Positions 17,276 to 62,260 of a stretch of DNA of 64,000 nucleotides are shown here, one piece after another. Position 1 is the stretch's first letter; each line of letters opens with the position of its first letter. The notes beneath the pieces were generated by a model. That model was not told where the DNA came from and ran no database searches. It saw nothing but the letters and a program-made list of their open reading frames with translations. Source of the DNA: Squalus acanthias (lineage: Eukaryota); the NCBI GenBank assembly GCA_030390025.1, contig CM059435.1, forward strand, positions 39,866,001 through 39,930,000, given 5' to 3'. The position numbers were made by a program, and so were the translations under genes.

Positions 17276-18249
17276 TAATTAATTGGGACCTAGGAACAAG
17301 CCAGAATAATTGTGTTTGTCTAACTCACTGTGACACTCATTGTGACATGCCTTAACAATGCTGTGACTAGCAATCTTCTGATGGGGTAAACATATATTTA
17401 AAATGCTTTTTCATGGCATTAGCAGTTAGATGCTTTGAAGAGGGAATTATAGGTTTCTGTGAAACAATAAACTAGATGGGTTGAATGGTCTCCCGTGACC
17501 ATTGTGGATAAGCAAAAATACATGGCAAATGACCACTGAATACAGAAAGTATTCCATTATGGTCTGATCATGGTTTAATCTGTCTCCAGTTTAATCATTT
17601 GCATGTGTGGTACATTCATGCGATTGTGGAATATTGTTCTGATTACTCTGAATTATTGTAATGTAACATAAGTGCATTTCAAATACAAACTAATATAATA
17701 CACCTTCCAATTGCTTTGGCAATAATTTCCATATTTCTGCTGAATATCACCTGTGCTGGCATGGCTCATAGATTTTTCATAGTAAGACCTAGGCAGCTGC
17801 ATGGGAGTCTTCAGAGTAAGCAAACAGAAAGAAGATATCATCCACATCAAAAAGTGAATTGAAATTTGGGAATCAGGGGAAATGTAATAGAAATATCCCA
17901 AATCTGTATAGAGAAGAACCAACAAAAAGTGAATTTAAAAGTTTTAGCACAAAACAAAGATTCCAAAAGAACACAGGGTAAAAATGAAGAGAATCAGTGC
18001 TGATTGGCAAATAGGTTAGCAACCCTACGCTTTTGTCACTCTTTGCCCACGTGGTTGTAGAGTACAAAGTTTCAAAACAAATCCTTGTTGAAGAGGAGAA
18101 CAAAAAAAAAGTTGCGATCTCTGGTTCGACTCAGCTCATGAATTATTATTTCATGTTTTTCACCTTTCTCCCCCTCAAAACCAGGGGCAGTGCACACCAG
18201 GAAAGTGTGACAGAGAGAGAGAGAGACACACACAACACACACAGATAGA

Positions 18250-18450
18250 AGGGTGCGCGTGCATGTGAACGTGATGGGTTGTCGGGAGCGCGCTGGGCGT
18301 GAGAGCGCGGGCACGGTGTCAATCCTTAAAGCGCGCGCGGGGAGGGAGAGAGAGGGGGACACGTGACGCCGGGAGGGGGGAGCGCGAGGCGGTGCGAGCG
18401 CTGGAGCATTATCGGCGGAATATAACACGGCAAAGGGAGCAGCGAGCAAC
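18250..18450 (+). promoter_or_regulatory. CpG-island promoter, probably of ZNF217
   Basis: The densest CpG stretch outside transposons; E-box CACGTG at 18360-18365, G-rich boxes, TATA-like tataa at 18421-18425, followed by 5' splice sites and upstream of the + strand coding exons. Confidence 0.75.
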
Positions 18451-28440: not shown

Positions 28441-30234
28441 GATTGTTGCAGATATCAAATGCATGTAATTATAATGAGCTGTGGAGTCCCACATATTCTT
28501 TAATATACAAAATTAATATGGAGAGTATACTTATTGTAGGGATTGTGAGAGCTCTACATACCTGAGTTATGATTTGTGAGTTGCAGATGGCCATTTGCAC
28601 TATAGTGCAATAGTGATTTTTTTTTTTAGCCTAGATTTCAAAATTGCTTAGTCTTGTGCTGATTTCCTGTTTGTGTATTTGATGACTTTGAGTAATTGCA
28701 ATGGTATTATGTTGCAATGTGTAATCGGTGTAATGATTCATGCGTATATCATGGGTGCAAATATTGATGTGCTAGTCTAGATGATCGCATATTTATGGAT
28801 GTCATTCTCATTATAGTATGGTGTATAAAGTATGAGGGTGTGGCACAAGCATGTCTAACCAGTCCTGTGTTTTTAATTTTAAAAGGTATTTGATGCCTGT
28901 TAGGGAACATCATGGATGCACAGCTCTGAAGTTAACTCAACCCTGAGTACTGATGGAAATTGAATAGAGTCCAGAATTTAAATCGGTAAGTCTTGATATA
29001 CTAGGTCGGAAAAAAACAATTCACCTGTACTGTTTTCTCTCCAGTGGTTGGTGATTTTTAGTCAAATCAAGTCTAGCCTAGTCTGTGTATCTGCATTTAT
29101 GCCACCCTTGGTTTGACTTGCGAGGAAGTGCACTTGAGGTACAGGAAGGAATTCATTTATTTCCTTCTTTCTCCCATCATACACACCCCAAGTAATTTAT
29201 TGAGGCTTGCAAACTTGCGACAGAAGGGAAGCAGACGTGTAAACAGCAGTTACATCTGACTTTGAGCTTGGAGATTCTAGTTGAGGGTCTGATACTTGAA
29301 ACAAGATATTGGTGAGGTTGGTCAGCTACCGAAGGTATAACTTGCAATCTTTGGTAAAACTAATTTTAAAGTTGTCCAATATTTTTCAGTCTTTCAGCAT
29401 ACAATACTACTTGTAGTCGAACCACTCGCTGAGGTGTTCAAACATGGTGCTGCATGTGTTTCTAGCTTCTATCCACAGCTTGCCAGCTTTTGGATGTTGC
29501 TGAAGCCAGTGATATGAGAGAGGTTCTGGGGGTTGTGGTCTTGACAAAAAGTGAGAGTAACCCTGATGTGTACAGTGTGATTTTGCAAATTCCAGCCTTT
29601 GACAGCTGAAGAGTCAGCAGGAAGAATGGGTACAATTTAGAGATTTCTAGTATGTTAACAAGATTTCCGATATACTGTTACATGGCGTACCAGCAGAAGT
29701 GACTTTGGTGTACCTCACCCTTTCTTAGGAAACTAGAATACCAGGAAGTTTGAGGCCTGAATGCTCAAATCAGTATGCAGAGTATCTTTCTGAAGACACC
29801 GCTATTCTTAGAACTTTGCTAAATAAGTCAGTCCTGCTCGGTTTTATAATTGCTTTTGATTTCTTTAGGATGCTCAGTGGGAGTTCTTAATGGGCCTCTG
29901 TCTTCAAGACTGAACAGAATGTCATATTTTCAAAATGGCAGTGTTCATGTATAGAAACCAATTGATATTGCACCTAGAAATCTTTGTACCTGACAATTTA
30001 TATTTTATTTGAAATAAATATATTGCTGAGAAGTGTTACTGACTCCTCCCTAGTGCATCTTGGTCCTTTTTTTTTGATTGGAGCACTGTACTATAATCTA
30101 GACTGGGCTAGCTCCTTTTGCTGTCTGGCTAGAGGATGGCCTGATGCTAGTGGCATCCATGATTGAAGTTTCAGGAACAGAAAAAGATCATGTGGCCTGA
30201 AAAGCCACTTCCTTTGGTAGAAGCATGATTTTGT

Positions 30235-45841: not shown

Positions 45842-46312
45842 GATAAGTCCAAAGGAAAAATGGAGTCAGACTACCAGGTCTCCAGTTTAGCAGAAACAAC
45901 TGTGCATAGAAGTGAATGTTTACTAGGTTTCGAACTGGGGCTGTCTTTGATGAGGCCTGCCAAAGAGTAACTTGGTTTGGATTTTCTAATCTTATTGTTC
46001 TTTATGTCCCTGACATTTACATTGCAGTGGAAAGTAGTTATACAAATTTGTGCAAAGTATCTTGTTTTGAATTGGAACTTTTTTTTACCATCCATAGTTA
46101 TTTTTAGCACTGAAGCATATTGTTTAAACAATCAGTTTTTTTGTTGCACAATATATTAACGGTTTAAATAGTTTTAATCTTATTTTGAATGCTCTGTATT
46201 CTATTTTCAGCAATTGAAACCCCTGCATCTGTAAGTACAAGGACACAAGAAAAGCAAGCTTTTGAGATTGAAATTGAAACTCTAAAGCTTTGTATTGTCT
46301 CAAAATAATGTG

Positions 46313-46858
46313 ATGAGAATACAATATCAAGACGACCAGGAAAGAACATCTGAAGAAGAGCTTATGCCTTGGTTTACTGACCAGCCTACTCATGAATTTG
46401 TGATGAAATCTACTGAGAGCTCCATAATGAAAACATCTGAGGATGTCAAAGAAGAAAATGTGAACTTAACACTTGGTGATTTTTCTGATGCAAAAAATTC
46501 TATTGAACACCATTGTTCAATTTGTGACCAGTGCTTTCCTTTCAGTAGCCTTTTAGCACAACACATGCACATGCATACAAATGAAAAGCCATTTAAGTGT
46601 CCCTTTTGTGACCATAGAACGTCCCAGAAATCAAATTTGAAAATTCATCTTCGAAAGCACAAACTAGACCATTTGCAACAAGGAAGAAAAACTGGAAGAA
46701 ATAAGGCCAATCTGTCACCTACAAGCTTTGATTGCCCAAATACTTTGTCTAATAGCATCAGTCCTAATGATGCTGAAATGACTGAGACTGATCAGCCAAT
46801 AAATGGTGTTGCTTTGTCTTTTGACAGGTTTGGAAGGAAATGTTGCAGTCCAAGCTGA
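46313..46858 (+). CDS. ZNF217: ZNF217 first coding exon, 5' reading frame: two ZNF516-like C2H2 fingers plus linker; exon acceptor at 46210/46211
   Basis: Acceptor ctattttcag|caattg; first in-frame ATG at 46313; CSICDQCFPFSSLLAQHMHMH-TNEKPF-KCPFCDHRTSQKSNLKIHLRKH (46514-46660); this frame stops at 46856-46858, out of frame with the downstream ORF. Confidence 0.75.
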   Translation: MRIQYQDDQERTSEEELMPWFTDQPTHEFVMKSTESSIMKTSEDVKEENVNLTLGDFSDAKNSIEHHCSICDQCFPFSSLLAQHMHMHTNEKPFKCPFCDHRTSQKSNLKIHLRKHKLDHLQQGRKTGRNKANLSPTSFDCPNTLSNSISPNDAEMTETDQPINGVALSFDRFGRKCCSPS

Positions 46859-48090
46859 AGAATGTCCACCTCTGCCTTGTATGTTTTGTAATAAAGGCTT
46901 TCGACACTCAGAAGAACTCCGTCACCATGTAGTGATTCAGCACAGGCCTACGTTATGTGAGCCCGCGGTCCTCCAGGTGGAGGAAGGGTTGAGTCCTATC
47001 GAAGAGGCGCATATTACAGCAAGTTCTCCAGAACAAGAGGCAAATGATGAAAACGAAGATGGTGAGCTCAGCTGTAAAGTTTGTGGACTGTCCTGCGAGA
47101 GTGCTTTGAGTCTGGAAACACACATGAGGAAACACAAGGATTCATTTACCTATGGTTGTAATGTATGTGGCCGACGTTTTAAGGAGCCTTGGTTTCTAAA
47201 AAACCATATGCGAACGCATGCGAGTAAAGCTAGGGGCAAATCTCAGCAGGATTTGGAAGGTCCTGCAACTATCAATAATGTTGCTATGCAAGAACCAATT
47301 TCAGGAAACGTTGCCTCTCCTTACAAAATGTGCATGGTTTGTGGATTTCTTTTCCCGAATAAAGACAGCTTGAAAGAACATAGTAAAGTTCACAACAAAG
47401 ATCTCACCGATGATGATAGAATGGACGATTACTCCTTAAATCAGGAAGTTGCGATCTCGCAGGAAGCATTCCTGCAGATGCTGAATTTAAATCCCCTCTT
47501 GTCACACAATTGTAACAAGCCTGTGAAGCTGGGAAAATGGATATCTGAACTTGATCCTTTCAATACGTACCAAGCTTGGCAGCTGGCTACTAAGGGAAAA
47601 GTGGCAGTTGGCCGAGAGAATGTGAAAGATCCAGGGCAAATGGCAAACTCTGAGAATGAAGAGGAACCTTCTGACAAAGAGGATTCCAGTGAGCATTGGA
47701 CCATAGAGAAAGGCAATCATGGACCTACCTTGGAGAACCTAGAAAAGTCTAAAATCAAAAACAGCAGTCTAGGCCAGAATGGACTGCCTCCTATGGGAGA
47801 TGTGGACATTGACCCGAAATTGACCCAGAATAAACTTAAACCGACCAACTGCGCAATGTGTGGTAAGATTTTTAGAACCTACCATCAGTTAGTGCTCCAC
47901 TCCCGAGTACACAGGAAAGGCAGGAAAAGTGTGGAGAATCCTCCAAATTCAGTTGATGGCAGTGAAGCTGGCACTCAATCCATAGACTCCGTTACAGCAG
48001 TTGAAGACCATAGCCCAGGAGCTGACAAACCTGAGGAGGGCTCTGAAGAGGGCTCAGAAGATGGAGTACTAGGAGAAGGACTTTCATCAG
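46803..48090 (+). CDS. ZNF217: ZNF217 first coding exon, 3' reading frame (fingers equivalent to human ZF1-ZF5)
   Basis: QHRPTLCEPAVLQVE, HKDSFTYGCNVCGRRFKEPWFLKNHMRTH, SPYKMCMVCGFLFPNK, LDPFNTYQAWQLATKGKVA and CGKIFRTYHQLVLHSRVH match human ZNF217 as recalled; donor CAG|gtagga at 48090/48091, phase 1. Confidence 0.95.
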
Positions 48091-48338
48091 GTAGGAAGGT
48101 TATAAACCTATTGGGATGCTTGGGTCTAATGCTCTTTTACATTTCTTGCCAACTCTCAATTTTCAGAATTTGAAAATACTTTGTCTTCGATAAGAATCTG
48201 TGCAAACTTCTGCCACAGTATCTCAAGATAGAAGAGCCCAAATTTTTGGTGATCCTATTGTCAAATTTAGTAGCCTTCCAAAAAAAAATTGTCTTCCCTA
48301 GTCCTTTTTAAGGTTTGAAAGTGTACACCTAGAAAGAA

Positions 48339-48550
48339 TGCCATGATGTGGAGATGCCGGTGTTGGACTGGGGTGGACAAATGTGAGAAGTCGCACAACA
48401 CCAGGTTATAGTCCAACAGTTTTATTTGAAATCTCAAGCTTTCGGAGCGCTGCTCCTTCGTCAGGTGAAGCGTGACGAAGGAGCAGCGCTCCGAAAGCTT
48501 GTGATTTCAAATAAAACTGTTTGACTATAACCTGGTGTTGTGCGACTTCT
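48339..48550. mobile_element. Young Penelope-like foldback insertion (second family) with 13-bp TSD
   Basis: TSD cacctagaaagaa at 48326-48338 and 48551-48563; 81-bp inverted arms 48383-48463 / 48473-48553 with 2 mismatches; hammerhead core in each arm. Confidence 0.85.
48432..48468 (-). ncRNA. Minimal type I hammerhead ribozyme motif (Penelope-type)
   Basis: Minus strand: ucac CUGACGA A GGAGC agc GCUCC GAAA GC UU gaga; palindromic AAGCUU helix III; one mismatch in helix I. Confidence 0.7.
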
Positions 48551-49122
48551 CACCTAGAAAGAAGTGGTTTCTTGCTAAAATGTGCAATTGGATTCTCTCC
48601 AATTAATGCATGTCTTGAGGGATAGTGGGTAGTGGTTAAAACGAATGTGAAGCTTACTTTTTTTTTGCTAAGCAGTGAGAATATTGGGCTACAATATTTA
48701 AAAGGTTTCATTAAATCTCAGATTCTTAGACTCCTGTTTGGTTACTTATGTGCCAATGTATTTGAAATATATAGCAATAAGCACCAGGAATTGCAGTGGA
48801 GTATATTGTCTTAAGACTGTTAAAACAAAAAACATTTTTGTGACACATTAAGCACTTTTGTGTTCTTGGCTTCTAACATTATGCAAATATTCATAAGTGA
48901 TTAACACACACTTCACTTAGAAATCATATTCCATTACAGGTTTTAATTGGTTTGCCTGTGCCTGATGTCTGAGGAAGGGTCCAAGCCATTTGATTCAAAT
49001 ACATTTTGTGGGTTTTGATCAAATGTGAATTTGACAGACTATTTAAATATGTTTGGTCCTGGTAACTTTTTTTTAAAGTATTTATCAAGCTGTCTTGCTT
49101 AAATCAGTTTAAAAATTGCTTC

Positions 49123-49650
49123 CATATAGGAACAGCAGTAGGCCCTTGAGCCCCTCGAGCCTGTTTCGCCATTCAATGAGATCATGGCTGATCTGCGACC
49201 TAACTCCATATACCCGCCTTTGGCCCATATCCCATAATACCTTTTGGTTAACAAAAATCTATCAATCTCCGATTTAAAATTAACAATTGATCTAGCATCA
49301 ATTGCTGTTTGTGGAAGAGAGTTCCAAACTTCTACCACCCTTTGTGTGTAGAAGTGTTTCCTAATTTCACTCTTGAAAGGTCTGGCTCCAATTTTAAGAC
49401 TATGCCCCCTACTCAGAAGCCCCAACCAGCGGAAATAGCTTCTCTCTATCTACCCTATCCGTTCCCCTTAATATCTTAAACTTCGATCAGATCACCCCTT
49501 AACCTTCTAAATTCTAGGGAATGCAATGCTAATTTGTGTAATCTCTCCTCTTAACTTAACCCTTGAAGTCTGGGTATCATTCTGGTAAACCCACGCTGCA
49601 CTCCCTCCAAGGCCAATATATCCTTCCTAGAACTGCTCCCAGTACTCCGT
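49123..49650 (-). mobile_element. CR1 LINE 3' fragment
   Basis: RGHSLKIGARPFKSEIRKHFYTQRVVEVWNSLP (CR1 ORF2 C-terminus) plus 3' tail. Confidence 0.92.
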
Positions 49651-54084: not shown

Positions 54085-54288
<204 letters not shown>

Positions 54289-55284: not shown

Positions 55285-56983
55285 CAATGGAAATGGCAGA
55301 TCAATTAACTACATACTTTGGTTCTGTCGTCACAAAGGAGGACACAAATAAACTCCGAGATGTCGGGGAACATAGGGTCTAATGAGAGGGAGGAATTGAA
55401 TGAAATCAGTATTTGTAGGGAAATTGACGGGATTGAAGGCCGATAAATCCCCAGGGCCTGATAATCTACATCCTAGGGTACTTAAGGAAGTGGCCCTAGA
55501 AATAGTAGATGCATTGCTGGTCATCTTTCAAAATTCTATAGACTGTGGAACAGTTCCCATTGATTGGGGGGTAGCTAATGTAACCCCACTATTTAAAAAA
55601 GGTGGTAGAGAAAAAACGGGGAATTAAGCCTGACATCGGTAGTGGGCAAAATGCTAGAGTCCATTATAAAAGATGTAATAGCAGAGCACTTGGAAAACAG
55701 TGACAGGACAAAGTCAACATGGATTTACAAAAGGTAAATCATGCCTGACTAATCTACTGGAATTTTTTGAGGATGTAACTGGTAGAATAGATAAGGGAGA
55801 ACCAGTGGATATGGTGTATTTGGACTTTCAGAAGGCTTTCGATAAGGTCCCGCATAAGAGATTAGCGTGCAAAGTTAAAGCACATGGGATTGGGGGTAAG
55901 GTACTGATTTGGATAGAGAACTGGTTGGCAGACAGGAAGCAAAGAGTTGGAATAAACGGGTCTTTTTCCGAGTGGCAGGCTGTGACTAGTGGGGTACCGC
56001 AGGGATCGGTACTAGGACCCCAGCTATTCACAATATATATTAATGATCTAGACGAGGGAACTAGATGTAATATCTCCAAGTTTGCAGATGACACAAAGCT
56101 GGGTGGGCGTGTGTGCTGTGAGGAGGATGCAGAGAAACTCCAGTATGATTTGGACAAGTTGGGTGATTGGGCAGATGCAGTATAATGTGGATAAATGCGA
56201 GGTTATCCACTTTGGTGGCAAAAACTGGAAGACATTATTAACTGAACAGCAATAGATTGGGAAAAGGGGAAGTGCAACGAGATCTGGGAGTCCTTGTGCA
56301 CCAGTCGCTGAAGGTAAGCATGCAGGTGCAGCAGGCGGTTAAGAAGGCAAATGGTATGTTGGCCTTCATAGCGAGAGGATTCGAGTACAGGAGCAGGGAT
56401 GTCTTGCTGCAGTTGTACAAGGCCTTGGTGAGACCACACCTTGAGTATTGTGTGCAGTTTTGGTTGCCTTATCTGAGGAAGGATGTTCTTGCCATGGAGG
56501 GAGTGCAGCGAAGATTTACCAGACTGATACCTGGGATGGCAGGAATGACGTATGAAGAGAGATTGGGTCGATTAGGCTTATATTCGCTAGAGTTTAGAAG
56601 AATGAGCGGGGATCTCATTGAAACTTATAAAATTCTAACAGGACTAGACAGACTAGATGCAGGAAGGATGTTCCCGATGGCGGGGAAGTCCAGAACCAGG
56701 GGTCACAGTCTAAGGATAAGGGGTAAGCCATTTAGGACTGAGATGAGGAGGAATTTCTTCACCCAGAGAGTGGTGAACCTGTGGAATTCTCTACCACAGA
56801 AGGCAGTTGAGGCCAATTCATTAAATATATTCAAGAAGGAGTTAGATATATTTCTTGAGGCTAAAGGGATATGGGGAGAAAGCAGGGACAGGGTACTGAA
56901 TTTGGATGATCAGCCATGATCTCATTAAATGGCGGAGCAGGCTCAAGGGGCCGAATGGCCTACTCCTGCTCCTATCTTCTATG
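55285..56983 (+). mobile_element. Young 5'-truncated CR1 LINE (RT domain, few frameshifts)
   Basis: [88 protein letters not shown]; 3' tail gaatggcctactcctgctcctatcttctatg. Confidence 0.97.
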
Positions 56984-60538: not shown

Positions 60539-62260
60539 GTGAAAAACCCCATAGATGTCCTCTCTGTGATTATGCTGCAGCTCAAAAGACCTCACTTAAA
60601 TATCACTTGGAGCGACACCACAAGGGTGAGCAGAAAAAGGCTGAAGAAAAGAGTGATCCTCTGAAGAGTTCATTGGCATCTCCGAAATTGGAAGTCGTAC
60701 CAAAAGGAAGTGATGAATCTGTTCAGGAATCTGTGGACTCGAAGAAGTTGATTACAGATTCTTTGGGCAGTGCCAAAGATTTAGATGCAGACTTTCCTCG
60801 GAGGAAACTCAAATCTACTCATTCTTCTCGTCCAATTTTTCAAAATGTTATGTTTTCAAATATGAATAGACCGTTCCCAGACTTGAACAGGAATACTAGT
60901 TTTCATAACAATCGCCGGATCTTCTGTAATGCAGTGCTGCCATATCGTGAGAAATCAAAGGGTGAAAAGGTGGTGAGTGAGTTCCATAGGAGTGACTCTG
61001 ATCCAAAGGCGGTTATAGACCTAGACGATTCCAAGGTTTTGGAGCAATGTTTAATGGAAGAACTGTCAGAAGATGGTGTGCAACAGAATAATGCTAGAAG
61101 CATAAAGTTGGAACCTGCTTCAATAAATGACCAATGCTACGTTAGTGCTAGAGGTAATATGGAGGACTACTGTGATAAATTTGAATCCAGCTTATTGGAA
61201 AAGCCCTTGAATCTCTGCACCACAATATATCAGCAAAGCCTGTGTAGTGGTGGTAGTCCTCGGGGAAATGCATCTACCTCAGTTTCCAAGAGTGCCTTAC
61301 TGAGCAACACGTGTCCATTTTGTACTTACAGAACTTTGTACCCAGAGGTCTTAGTGATGCACCAAAGGTTGGTACACAAATATAATCCTGACCCAAGCCC
61401 AATAAATGGAGTTCGAAGTGCTGTTCGTGGTGGGTCAATTAAAAGCAGACGCACTGGATGCCCTCCTGCACTATTAGGTCAAGATGTTTCTTCTTTGCTT
61501 GCCACCAAAGAAATGAACAGAAAGTTTTCTCGTCGGACCAGGTCACCACTACCAGCAGCTTCACCAGATGCTTCAAACATGCTGCTTGGGAAGGCAAAAT
61601 CACCATCATCACACCAATCTCTGTGCAATAATCTCCTTCCCTCTGCAGCAGGATCTAGATCTTCAGGCGAATTTAAAGCATTCAAGGCTACCCAAAATCC
61701 TAATGTACATCTAGAAAACTATGGATCCATACATACTGAACTTAGACAGATGCCAGATGTGGTGCAAAAAATGGAAAGAAGTGAATCCTCAGAGGCTGGT
61801 AATAGTAAGAGAAATATGTCGGAAAGGCCTGGTATTAAGTTGGACTACGAATCTGATGGACCTAGGGGACCTTTGTTTAGATATGATAGTCTTTGGGCGC
61901 CAAATGTTAGCAAAATGTGTCTTACTAATGTGTCAGAGAATCAGGGAGGCTTGGACTCGCATGAGCCTACAGCTAAAAGAATGAAAGTAAACAGTCCTTT
62001 AAGAAACGATCAGCTTACATTTGGAACAAGGAGGAGTGTCCAAGGAAGAAATGTAAAATTATTATCTCAGGAGATGTCCCCTGTTCAGTCAAGAAACTCC
62101 GGGGTATCGTCTAAGCCAGAATCCGCCTTGGATTCAAATGGAGTTGACTCGCATTGGAATGTATTGAAAATTTTGAAGTCCTACAACCCGCAAGATCTTG
62201 CTTCACTGTATAGTACTTGTGGACCCAGTAATAGTAGAGATCCTAATATTGGTCAAGAAG
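60539..62260 (+). CDS. ZNF217: ZNF217 large coding exon (human ZF7 and ZF8 equivalents, CtBP-binding motifs); gene continues beyond window
   Basis: Acceptor ttttcgcttcag|gt; GEKPHRCPLCDYAAAQKTSLKYHLERHH, EKPLNL, TCPFCTYRTLYPEVLVMHQRLVHKYNPD, RRTGCPPALLG; donor AAG|gtaggt at 62260/62261 after EG. Confidence 0.95.

What the first reader, a model, noticed from the sequence alone, without database searches (positions are those of the whole stretch)
46514..46660. Extra N-terminal zinc-finger pair: a ten-finger ZNF217 with ancestral ZNF516/536/219-like architecture
Seen: two complete C2H2 fingers with a TNEKPF linker upstream of the region matching the human N-terminus, giving 10 fingers in total. 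Recalled knowledge: human ZNF217 has 8 fingers, and its paralogue ZNF516 begins with CCICGKSFPFQSSLSQHMRKHTGEKPYKCPYCDHRASQKGNLKIHIRSH, very like this pair. Inference: this lineage keeps a module lost from mammalian ZNF217, potentially a second DNA-binding unit. Intact Cys/His residues argue it is, or recently was, translated.
Basis: partly seen in the sequence, partly recalled or inferred. Interest (0 to 1): 0.7.

Follow-up and report, generated by a model that had tools for sequence, protein, structure and literature searches.

The report
Shark ZNF217 keeps ancestral zinc fingers
The shark version of the gene regulator ZNF217 has two extra zinc fingers at its front end, matching those of its sister gene ZNF516; they were likely present in the first jawed vertebrates and have since decayed piecemeal in many sharks, rays and bony vertebrates, which makes them an evolutionary leftover rather than a new kind of system.

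Summary
Both fingers are real (46514-46576, 46598-46660). Four of 4 independent runs lack base 46826, so the window carries a 1-nt insertion, most likely an assembly error; without it the ten-finger protein is continuous, and the exon is spliced into transcripts. Public databases already hold 1220-1310-aa shark, ray and chimaera ZNF217 models with this N-terminus. The pair matches the first pair of ZNF516 (28-33 of 49 residues) better than ZNF217's own DNA-binding pair (20-22), while the core groups with ZNF217 (100/100): an ancestral module, most likely. None of 106 bony-vertebrate ZNF217 proteins has the pair; axolotl and one caecilian keep finger 2 just before the bony-vertebrate start, which maps inside the shark linker. 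Among 23 cartilaginous fishes finger 1 is intact in 23, finger 2 in only 8, with its first Cys lost by two routes. An auxiliary DNA-contacting module is plausible but untested and evidently dispensable. Not found in print in 10 searches. A variant of a known protein; modest interest.

The parts
28886..28985 (+). Upstream 5' exon (100 nt, non-coding; four short upstream ATG frames)
   Evidence: Loose end of transcript contigs maps to 28955-28984; AG/GT edges. Its 5' edge is inferred from the AG and from the X4 back-joint lengths
46211..48090 (+). Large first coding exon of ZNF217: 102-nt UTR, N-terminus, fingers N1, N2 and F1-F5
   Evidence: Contigs of X1 and X4 span 46210-48090 with loose ends on both sides; X6 covers it in two pieces; edges
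46313..46315 (+). Likely start codon (MRIQYQD...), in-frame stop just upstream; an ATG-TGA start-stop at 46308 overlaps it; a second candidate ATG at 46364 (MPWF...)
   Evidence: the same starts in homologue models
46514..46576 (+). Extra finger N1 (helix residues -1,2,3,6 = F,S,L,Q)
   Evidence: intact in 23 of 23 cartilaginous fishes
46577..46597 (+). Seven-residue linker TNEKPFK
   Evidence: shortened by 3 residues in 10 of 23 species
46598..46660 (+). Extra finger N2 (Q,S,N,I)
   Evidence: intact in 8 of 23; homologue kept in axolotl and Rhinatrema
46826..46826 (+). One extra base in the window that shifts the frame between N2 and F1; likely an assembly error
   Evidence: Left out in 4 of 4 runs (table 4); tblastn of P0004 changes frame here
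46878..47912 (+). Core fingers F1-F5 (46878, 47073, 47157, 47331, 47850)
54137..54262 (+). Exon with finger F6 (54196-54258)
60539..62260 (+). Exon with F7 (60556-60621), PLNL motif (61204), F8 (61312-61377) and RRTG motif (61447); the last coding exon has no hit in the window
   Evidence: edges from AG/GT and tblastn, not from reads

Best explanation
This is the shark orthologue of ZNF217, with two extra N-terminal C2H2 fingers in its spliced first coding exon, that were likely inherited from the common ancestor of ZNF217 and ZNF516 and likely act as a dispensable, auxiliary DNA-contacting unit. The window's frameshift at 46826 is most likely an assembly error. The protein would work as in mammals: F1-F4 bind CoREST, F6-F7 read DNA, and the motifs beside F8 bind CtBP (from PMC11905140; transferred by homology). 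N1-N2 would add a second, weak 6-7-bp contact like the first pair of ZNF516 (inferred). Bony vertebrates likely shed the module by gaining a new ATG in the linker after N2 (MPT[QH]P), after which the upstream part decayed lineage by lineage; cartilaginous fishes kept the old start, but N2 lost its first zinc ligand on at least two occasions (inferred from two different lesions).
For: Frame: base 46826 left out in 4 of 4 runs; 12 of 12 shark and ray homologues read through. Orthology: core tree without the pair splits 26 ZNF217 from 6 ZNF516 rows at 100/100. Ancestry: pair identity 28-33 of 49 to ten distinct ZNF516-type first pairs, 20-22 to ZNF217 F6-F7, at most 25 among 71 background pairs; chimaera RefSeq model has both fingers; the 14 best matches of each amphibian finger among 504 distinct fingers are all N2-type; the axolotl stretch before its finger still resembles the shark N-terminus (4 of 500 shuffles reach it) and so does the extension of an unnamed newt-cluster protein (2 of 500). 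Start shift: MPT[QH]P aligns to the shark linker after N2. Constraint: across 22 species N1 0.80 and N2 0.77 mean identity against 0.60-0.68 for flanks. Fold.
Against: No binding data for this pair; no paper seen assigns DNA binding to ZNF516's first pair (PMC5612949 passages map only CoREST and CtBP binding to fingers 1-9 together). N2 lacks its first Cys in 15 of 23 species, 4 of which have lost a His as well; amphibians keep N2 without N1. The pair is less conserved than F2-F8 (0.90-1.00) and on a par with F1 (0.81). A tree of the finger pairs alone did not resolve the grouping with ZNF516. Absence in bony vertebrates is from annotated proteins, not genomes. No remnant was detectable in six other N-terminal extensions (owl, tarsier, two seals, spadefoot toad, one unnamed record; 41-356 of 500 shuffles reach them). 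No outgroup (lamprey, amphioxus) or ZNF536/ZNF219 sequence was obtained.
Confidence: 0.62

Rival explanations
1. Same history, but the fingers are kept as protein-contact modules (or N1 alone is the working part), not as a DNA-reading pair.
For: N1 intact in 23 of 23 while N2 is altered in 15; N1's helix has F and L at base-reading positions -1 and 3; amphibians keep N2 alone; the neighbouring F1-F4 are CoREST-binding fingers (PMC11905140, passages).
Against: Near-canonical linker and spacing in 8 of 23 species including both deepest branches; N2 carries Q at -1 and N at 3 as in ZNF516, residues typical of base contacts (recalled recognition code).
Confidence: 0.22
2. The pair is a vestige under relaxed selection: translated only because it lies between the start codon and the core, and drifting away.
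For: Repeated loss of zinc ligands in N2; complete absence in 104 of 106 bony-vertebrate proteins.
Against: All eight ligands are kept between chimaera and this shark (33 of 49 identical); fingers more conserved than flanks; axolotl and Rhinatrema keep an intact N2 across a deep split.
Confidence: 0.1
3. The pair is a gain in cartilaginous fishes, by internal duplication of F6-F7 or by conversion from ZNF516.
For: Pair-only tree is unresolved; tblastn shows 45% identity between F6-F7 and the pair.
Against: N2 homologues at the same position in two amphibian orders; much closer to ZNF516's pair than to F6-F7; same position in the same architecture as ZNF516.
Confidence: 0.03
4. The frameshift is real in this animal, so the pair sits in a short 181-codon upstream frame or a null allele, and no ten-finger protein is made from this copy.
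For: The window reads so; no run is known to be from the assembled individual.
Against: Three runs at 99% identity or more and one related DNA run all lack the base.
Confidence: 0.03

Closest known systems
ZNF217 of cartilaginous fishes (RefSeq/UniRef models: Pristiophorus, Heptranchias, Heterodontus, skates, Callorhinchus XP_007883777)
   Same: Same N-terminus and finger pair; 87-91% identical over the N-terminal frame for the three closest; ten fingers.
   Different: Nothing beyond species divergence and the window's 1-nt insertion; 15 of 23 species have an altered N2.
Mammalian ZNF217 (eight fingers; PMC6348741 and PMC11905140 passages)
   Same: F1-F8 in the same order, F6-F7 helix residues SYYI/QTSY identical to lemur and platypus, PLNL and RRTG motifs around F8.
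   Different: About 125 more N-terminal residues with N1-N2; the bony-vertebrate start MPT[QH]P has no Met counterpart in the shark alignment.
ZNF516 (ten fingers, CtBP/LSD1/CoREST recruiter; PMC5612949 passages)
   Same: N-terminal linked finger pair, 28-33 of 49 identical; shared core fingers and LDP motif.
   Different: Separate clade; ZNF516 rows lack the SYYI/QTSY pair and carry other C-terminal fingers; its first pair kept all eight ligands in the 10 representatives seen.
Axolotl and Rhinatrema ZNF217 (nine fingers)
   Same: One N2-type finger just before the MP[TP]QP start.
   Different: N1 decayed or absent; N2 helix differs (QSKI, QRKL).

Membership tests
Classical C2H2 zinc finger | C-x2-C-x12-H-x3-H with aromatic and Leu core | tested here: met
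Classical C2H2 zinc finger | Beta-beta-alpha fold | tested here: met
   Predicted only: two strands plus helix twice, block pLDDT 83-93
Classical C2H2 zinc finger | Zinc binding | not testable with these tools
   Needs a bench assay
Tandem DNA-binding C2H2 array | TGEKP-type linker of canonical length | tested here: met
   TNEKPFK, seven residues; G replaced by N
Tandem DNA-binding C2H2 array | Sequence-specific DNA binding | not testable with these tools
   No assay; N1 helix residues are atypical
ZNF217 orthologue | Core groups with ZNF217, apart from ZNF516 | tested here: met
   100/100, built on the closest named homologues; the window's exons are 91-98% identical to P0004
ZNF217 orthologue | Eight core fingers with the F6-F7 DNA-binding pair | tested here: met
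ZNF217 orthologue | CtBP-binding PXDLS-like and RRT motifs near F8 | tested here: met
   PLNLC at 61204 and RRTG at 61447; PLNLC is a variant of the consensus given in PMC5612949
ZNF217 orthologue | Continuous open reading frame | tested here: met
   Not met in the window as assembled; met in 4 of 4 runs
ZNF217 orthologue | Conserved gene neighbourhood | not testable with these tools
   No genome held; no neighbouring gene identified in the window
ZNF516-type N-terminal finger pair | Closest match is the first pair of ZNF516, at the same position | tested here: met
ZNF516-type N-terminal finger pair | Supported clade with the ZNF516 first pair | tested here: inconclusive
   53 columns, forks open
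ZNF536/ZNF219 N-terminal finger pair | Homology to their first pair | not tested
   No ZNF536 or ZNF219 sequence came up; the likeness is recalled

The most novel reading that the evidence does not exclude
The ZNF217 of early jawed vertebrates read DNA with two separate finger pairs. Sharks with intact N1-N2 still do, and target a ZNF516-like site set besides the F6-F7 sites; a new start codon in the ancestor of bony fishes cut the module off and narrowed the repressor's targets. The reciprocal series (N1 only in most modern sharks and stingrays, N2 only in axolotl and a caecilian, neither in amniotes) is a natural deletion panel for a function of the ZNF516-family first pair that no paper seen here defines.
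Probability: 0.25. Interest if true: 0.6.

Novelty: new variant of a known kind. Interest (0 to 1): 0.38.

Why it matters
ZNF217 is a much-studied oncogenic repressor described as an eight-finger protein. Showing that eight is the reduced state, reached by a start-codon shift, ties it architecturally to ZNF516 and gives a clean case of domain loss after gene duplication, with surviving intermediates. It supplies natural variants for testing what the family's first finger pair does. It also flags a one-base error in this assembly that would break an automatic gene model. The sequences are already in databases and the function is untested, so the impact is limited to specialists in transcription-factor evolution.

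Tried and rejected
No whole genome is held, so paralogues and synteny in this species could not be searched. An intron between N2 and F1 was considered because the inserted base creates an acceptor-like AG: rejected, no joint there and contigs run through. No run was on record as RNA; the three 'RNA?' runs are taken as RNA because their contigs join exons at AG/GT edges. A search with the axolotl N-terminus (residues 1-112) returned only itself among 9 candidates: weak, word-limited, no evidence either way. A search for remnants in six other N-terminal extensions was negative; the owl 'remnant' seen by eye was dropped. The finger-pair tree was uninformative. The solved-structure search gave only generic C2H2 hits (143 sequences); no fold search was run. 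dN/dS was not computed: no coding DNA for the homologues; among the 40 of 48 differences shown for run X19, none falls in 46514-46660, too few to weigh. Pristis was left out of the conservation table (internal duplication in its model); the low F6 value for 'intact7' reflects the chimaera model lacking F6. Earlier scan findings: none. Ten paper searches showed no paper on this architecture; the ZNF217 F6-F7 structure paper was not held; supplements were not read and subscription papers are missing from the library.

Full report
Observation. A six-frame scan of the 64-kb window finds ten C2H2 motifs, all on the + strand. Pfam zf-C2H2 passes its cut-off (33.9 against 25.2 bits), and AlphaFold2 on a 20-row alignment gives two beta-beta-alpha fingers with block pLDDT 83-93 in an otherwise low-confidence chain. 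But the pair's frame (46286-46858, first ATG 46313) ends in a stop, and the next five fingers are in another frame. tblastn of the closest homologue, P0004, changes frame at 46821-46825. As assembled, the window does not encode a ten-finger protein.

The frame break. I laid 4 of the 24 listed runs on 45900-48300. All four, from three studies, leave out base 46826 (table 4); three of them have contigs at 99% identity or more. Their contigs cover 46210-48090 and continue into sequence found at 28955-28984 and 54137-54166, at AG/GT edges, so these are spliced transcripts that carry the pair. No joint is listed near 46826. All 12 shark and ray homologues read through this place in one frame. The extra base is therefore most likely an assembly error; a private allele is not excluded, since no run is known to be from the assembled animal. 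Exons: 28886-28985, 46211-48090, 54137-54262, 60539-62260; the last 34 residues of P0004 have no hit in the window.

Identity. The top 12 of 27 hits are shark and ray proteins of 1106-1312 aa, 11 of them named ZNF217. A tree of the core with the pair excluded separates 26 ZNF217 rows from 6 ZNF516 rows at 100/100. F6-F7 helix residues equal those of lemur and platypus; PLNLC and RRTG motifs flank F8. From passages of PMC11905140: human ZF1-4 bind CoREST, ZF6-7 bind DNA, motifs next to ZF8 bind CtBP; passages of PMC6348741 give eight fingers for ZNF217 and ten for ZNF536; passages of PMC5612949 give ten for ZNF516 and map CoREST and CtBP binding to fingers 1-9 together.

Origin of the pair. Among 220 distinct finger pairs held, the best matches after cartilaginous-fish ZNF217 itself are ten ZNF516-type first pairs (28-33 of 49 identical); ZNF217's own F6-F7 gives 20-22, and 71 background pairs average 18.4 with a maximum of 25. 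Seven of these ZNF516-type representatives were named through their clusters. The chimaera RefSeq model has both fingers, although its UniRef models start later. A tree of pairs alone was unresolved. ZNF536 and ZNF219 did not come up in any search, so their likeness is recalled, not tested; that these genes are whole-genome-duplication sisters is also recalled.

Bony vertebrates. Of the best 120 of 1483 hits, 106 are bony-vertebrate ZNF217, weighted towards birds and reptiles. None has the pair; two have one upstream finger: axolotl and the caecilian Rhinatrema. For each, the 14 best matches among 504 distinct fingers are N2-type. The axolotl stretch before that finger still resembles the shark N-terminus (4 of 500 shuffles reach the score), as does the 43-residue extension of P0110, an unnamed protein of a newt cluster (2 of 500); these two values are not corrected for the ten tests. 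Six other extensions showed nothing. None of 27 further representatives nor the named models of coelacanth, lungfish, bichir, sturgeon, bowfin, Pleurodeles, Ascaphus or Microcaecilia has the finger. The common bony-vertebrate start MPT[QH]P aligns within the shark linker, about ten residues after N2, where sharks have no Met. The simplest reading is a new ATG in the ancestor of bony vertebrates, followed by separate decay upstream. This rests on annotated proteins: remnants out of frame or without an ATG are invisible here.

Cartilaginous fishes. In 23 named species (one model each) N1 keeps all four ligands in 23, N2 in 8. Ten species of the orectolobiform, lamniform and carcharhiniform sharks share a linker shorter by three residues and have Arg or His at the first Cys; four of them have also lost a His. 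Five rays have the full linker with Arg (Pristis) or His (four stingrays and devil rays). Two different lesions point to at least two independent losses (inferred; order-level names recalled). Six of the 15 have His at the first position and both other His, and might still hold zinc. There are no stop codons, as expected for a stretch between the start and the core. Mean identity over 22 species is 0.80 (N1) and 0.77 (N2), above the flanks (0.60-0.68), near F1 (0.81) and below F2-F8 (0.90-1.00).

Mechanism. Shown: the pair is in a spliced exon, in frame with the core once one base is removed; it is ZNF516-like; it is conserved beyond its flanks; it is altered repeatedly. Inferred: translation from ATG 46313; an auxiliary DNA contact, from the linker and from N2's Q(-1) and N(3) shared with ZNF516. 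Against it: N1 has F and L at base-reading positions, N1 persists without a canonical N2 in 15 species, and amphibians keep the opposite finger, so the two do not behave as an obligate unit. I put 0.62 on the whole account, about 0.9 on the history alone, and 0.22 on a protein-contact role.

Novelty. The sequences are annotated in RefSeq and UniRef. Ten searches (listings and abstract starts, with passages read in four papers) showed no description of the ten-finger state, the amphibian intermediates or the start shift; the library lacks most subscription papers and no supplements were read. The scan's earlier notes hold nothing similar.

Noticed in passing
window 28886-28985 and 46211-48090: One contig of run X4 (2009 nt) joins the donor at 48090 back to the exon start with 96 letters between. 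The 100-nt upstream exon begins GTA and ends G, and 100 + 1879 + 30 letters of end overlap equals 2009, which fits a back-spliced circular RNA of the two exons holding the start codon and seven fingers but not F6-F7. One run of four; the 96 letters were not printed.
   Followed up: partly
window 46308-46315 and 28886-28985: An ATG-TGA start-stop overlaps the main ATG, and four more short upstream frames (4-17 codons) lie in the upstream exon; possible translational damping.
   Followed up: no
window 48383-48553: Near-perfect palindrome in the intron: 81-nt arms, 98% complementary, 9 nt apart; looks like a miniature inverted-repeat element.
   Followed up: no
window 47723: All four runs read T where the window has A (synonymous Gly): a second assembly error or a private allele.
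   Followed up: no
window about 18240-18450: CpG-rich stretch beside GA repeats, a candidate promoter or first exon of the gene.
   Followed up: no
window 55682-56919 and 49099-49449: Fragments of reverse-transcriptase-like reading frames, resembling LINE elements (label recalled).
   Followed up: no
P0006 (Pristis ZNF217 model): Carries an exact internal duplication of about 75 residues including finger F1; assembly artefact or a real duplication.
   Followed up: no
P0133 and P0256 (coelacanth ZNF217): Both models lack the two Cys of core finger F1, a further finger loss in this protein.
   Followed up: no
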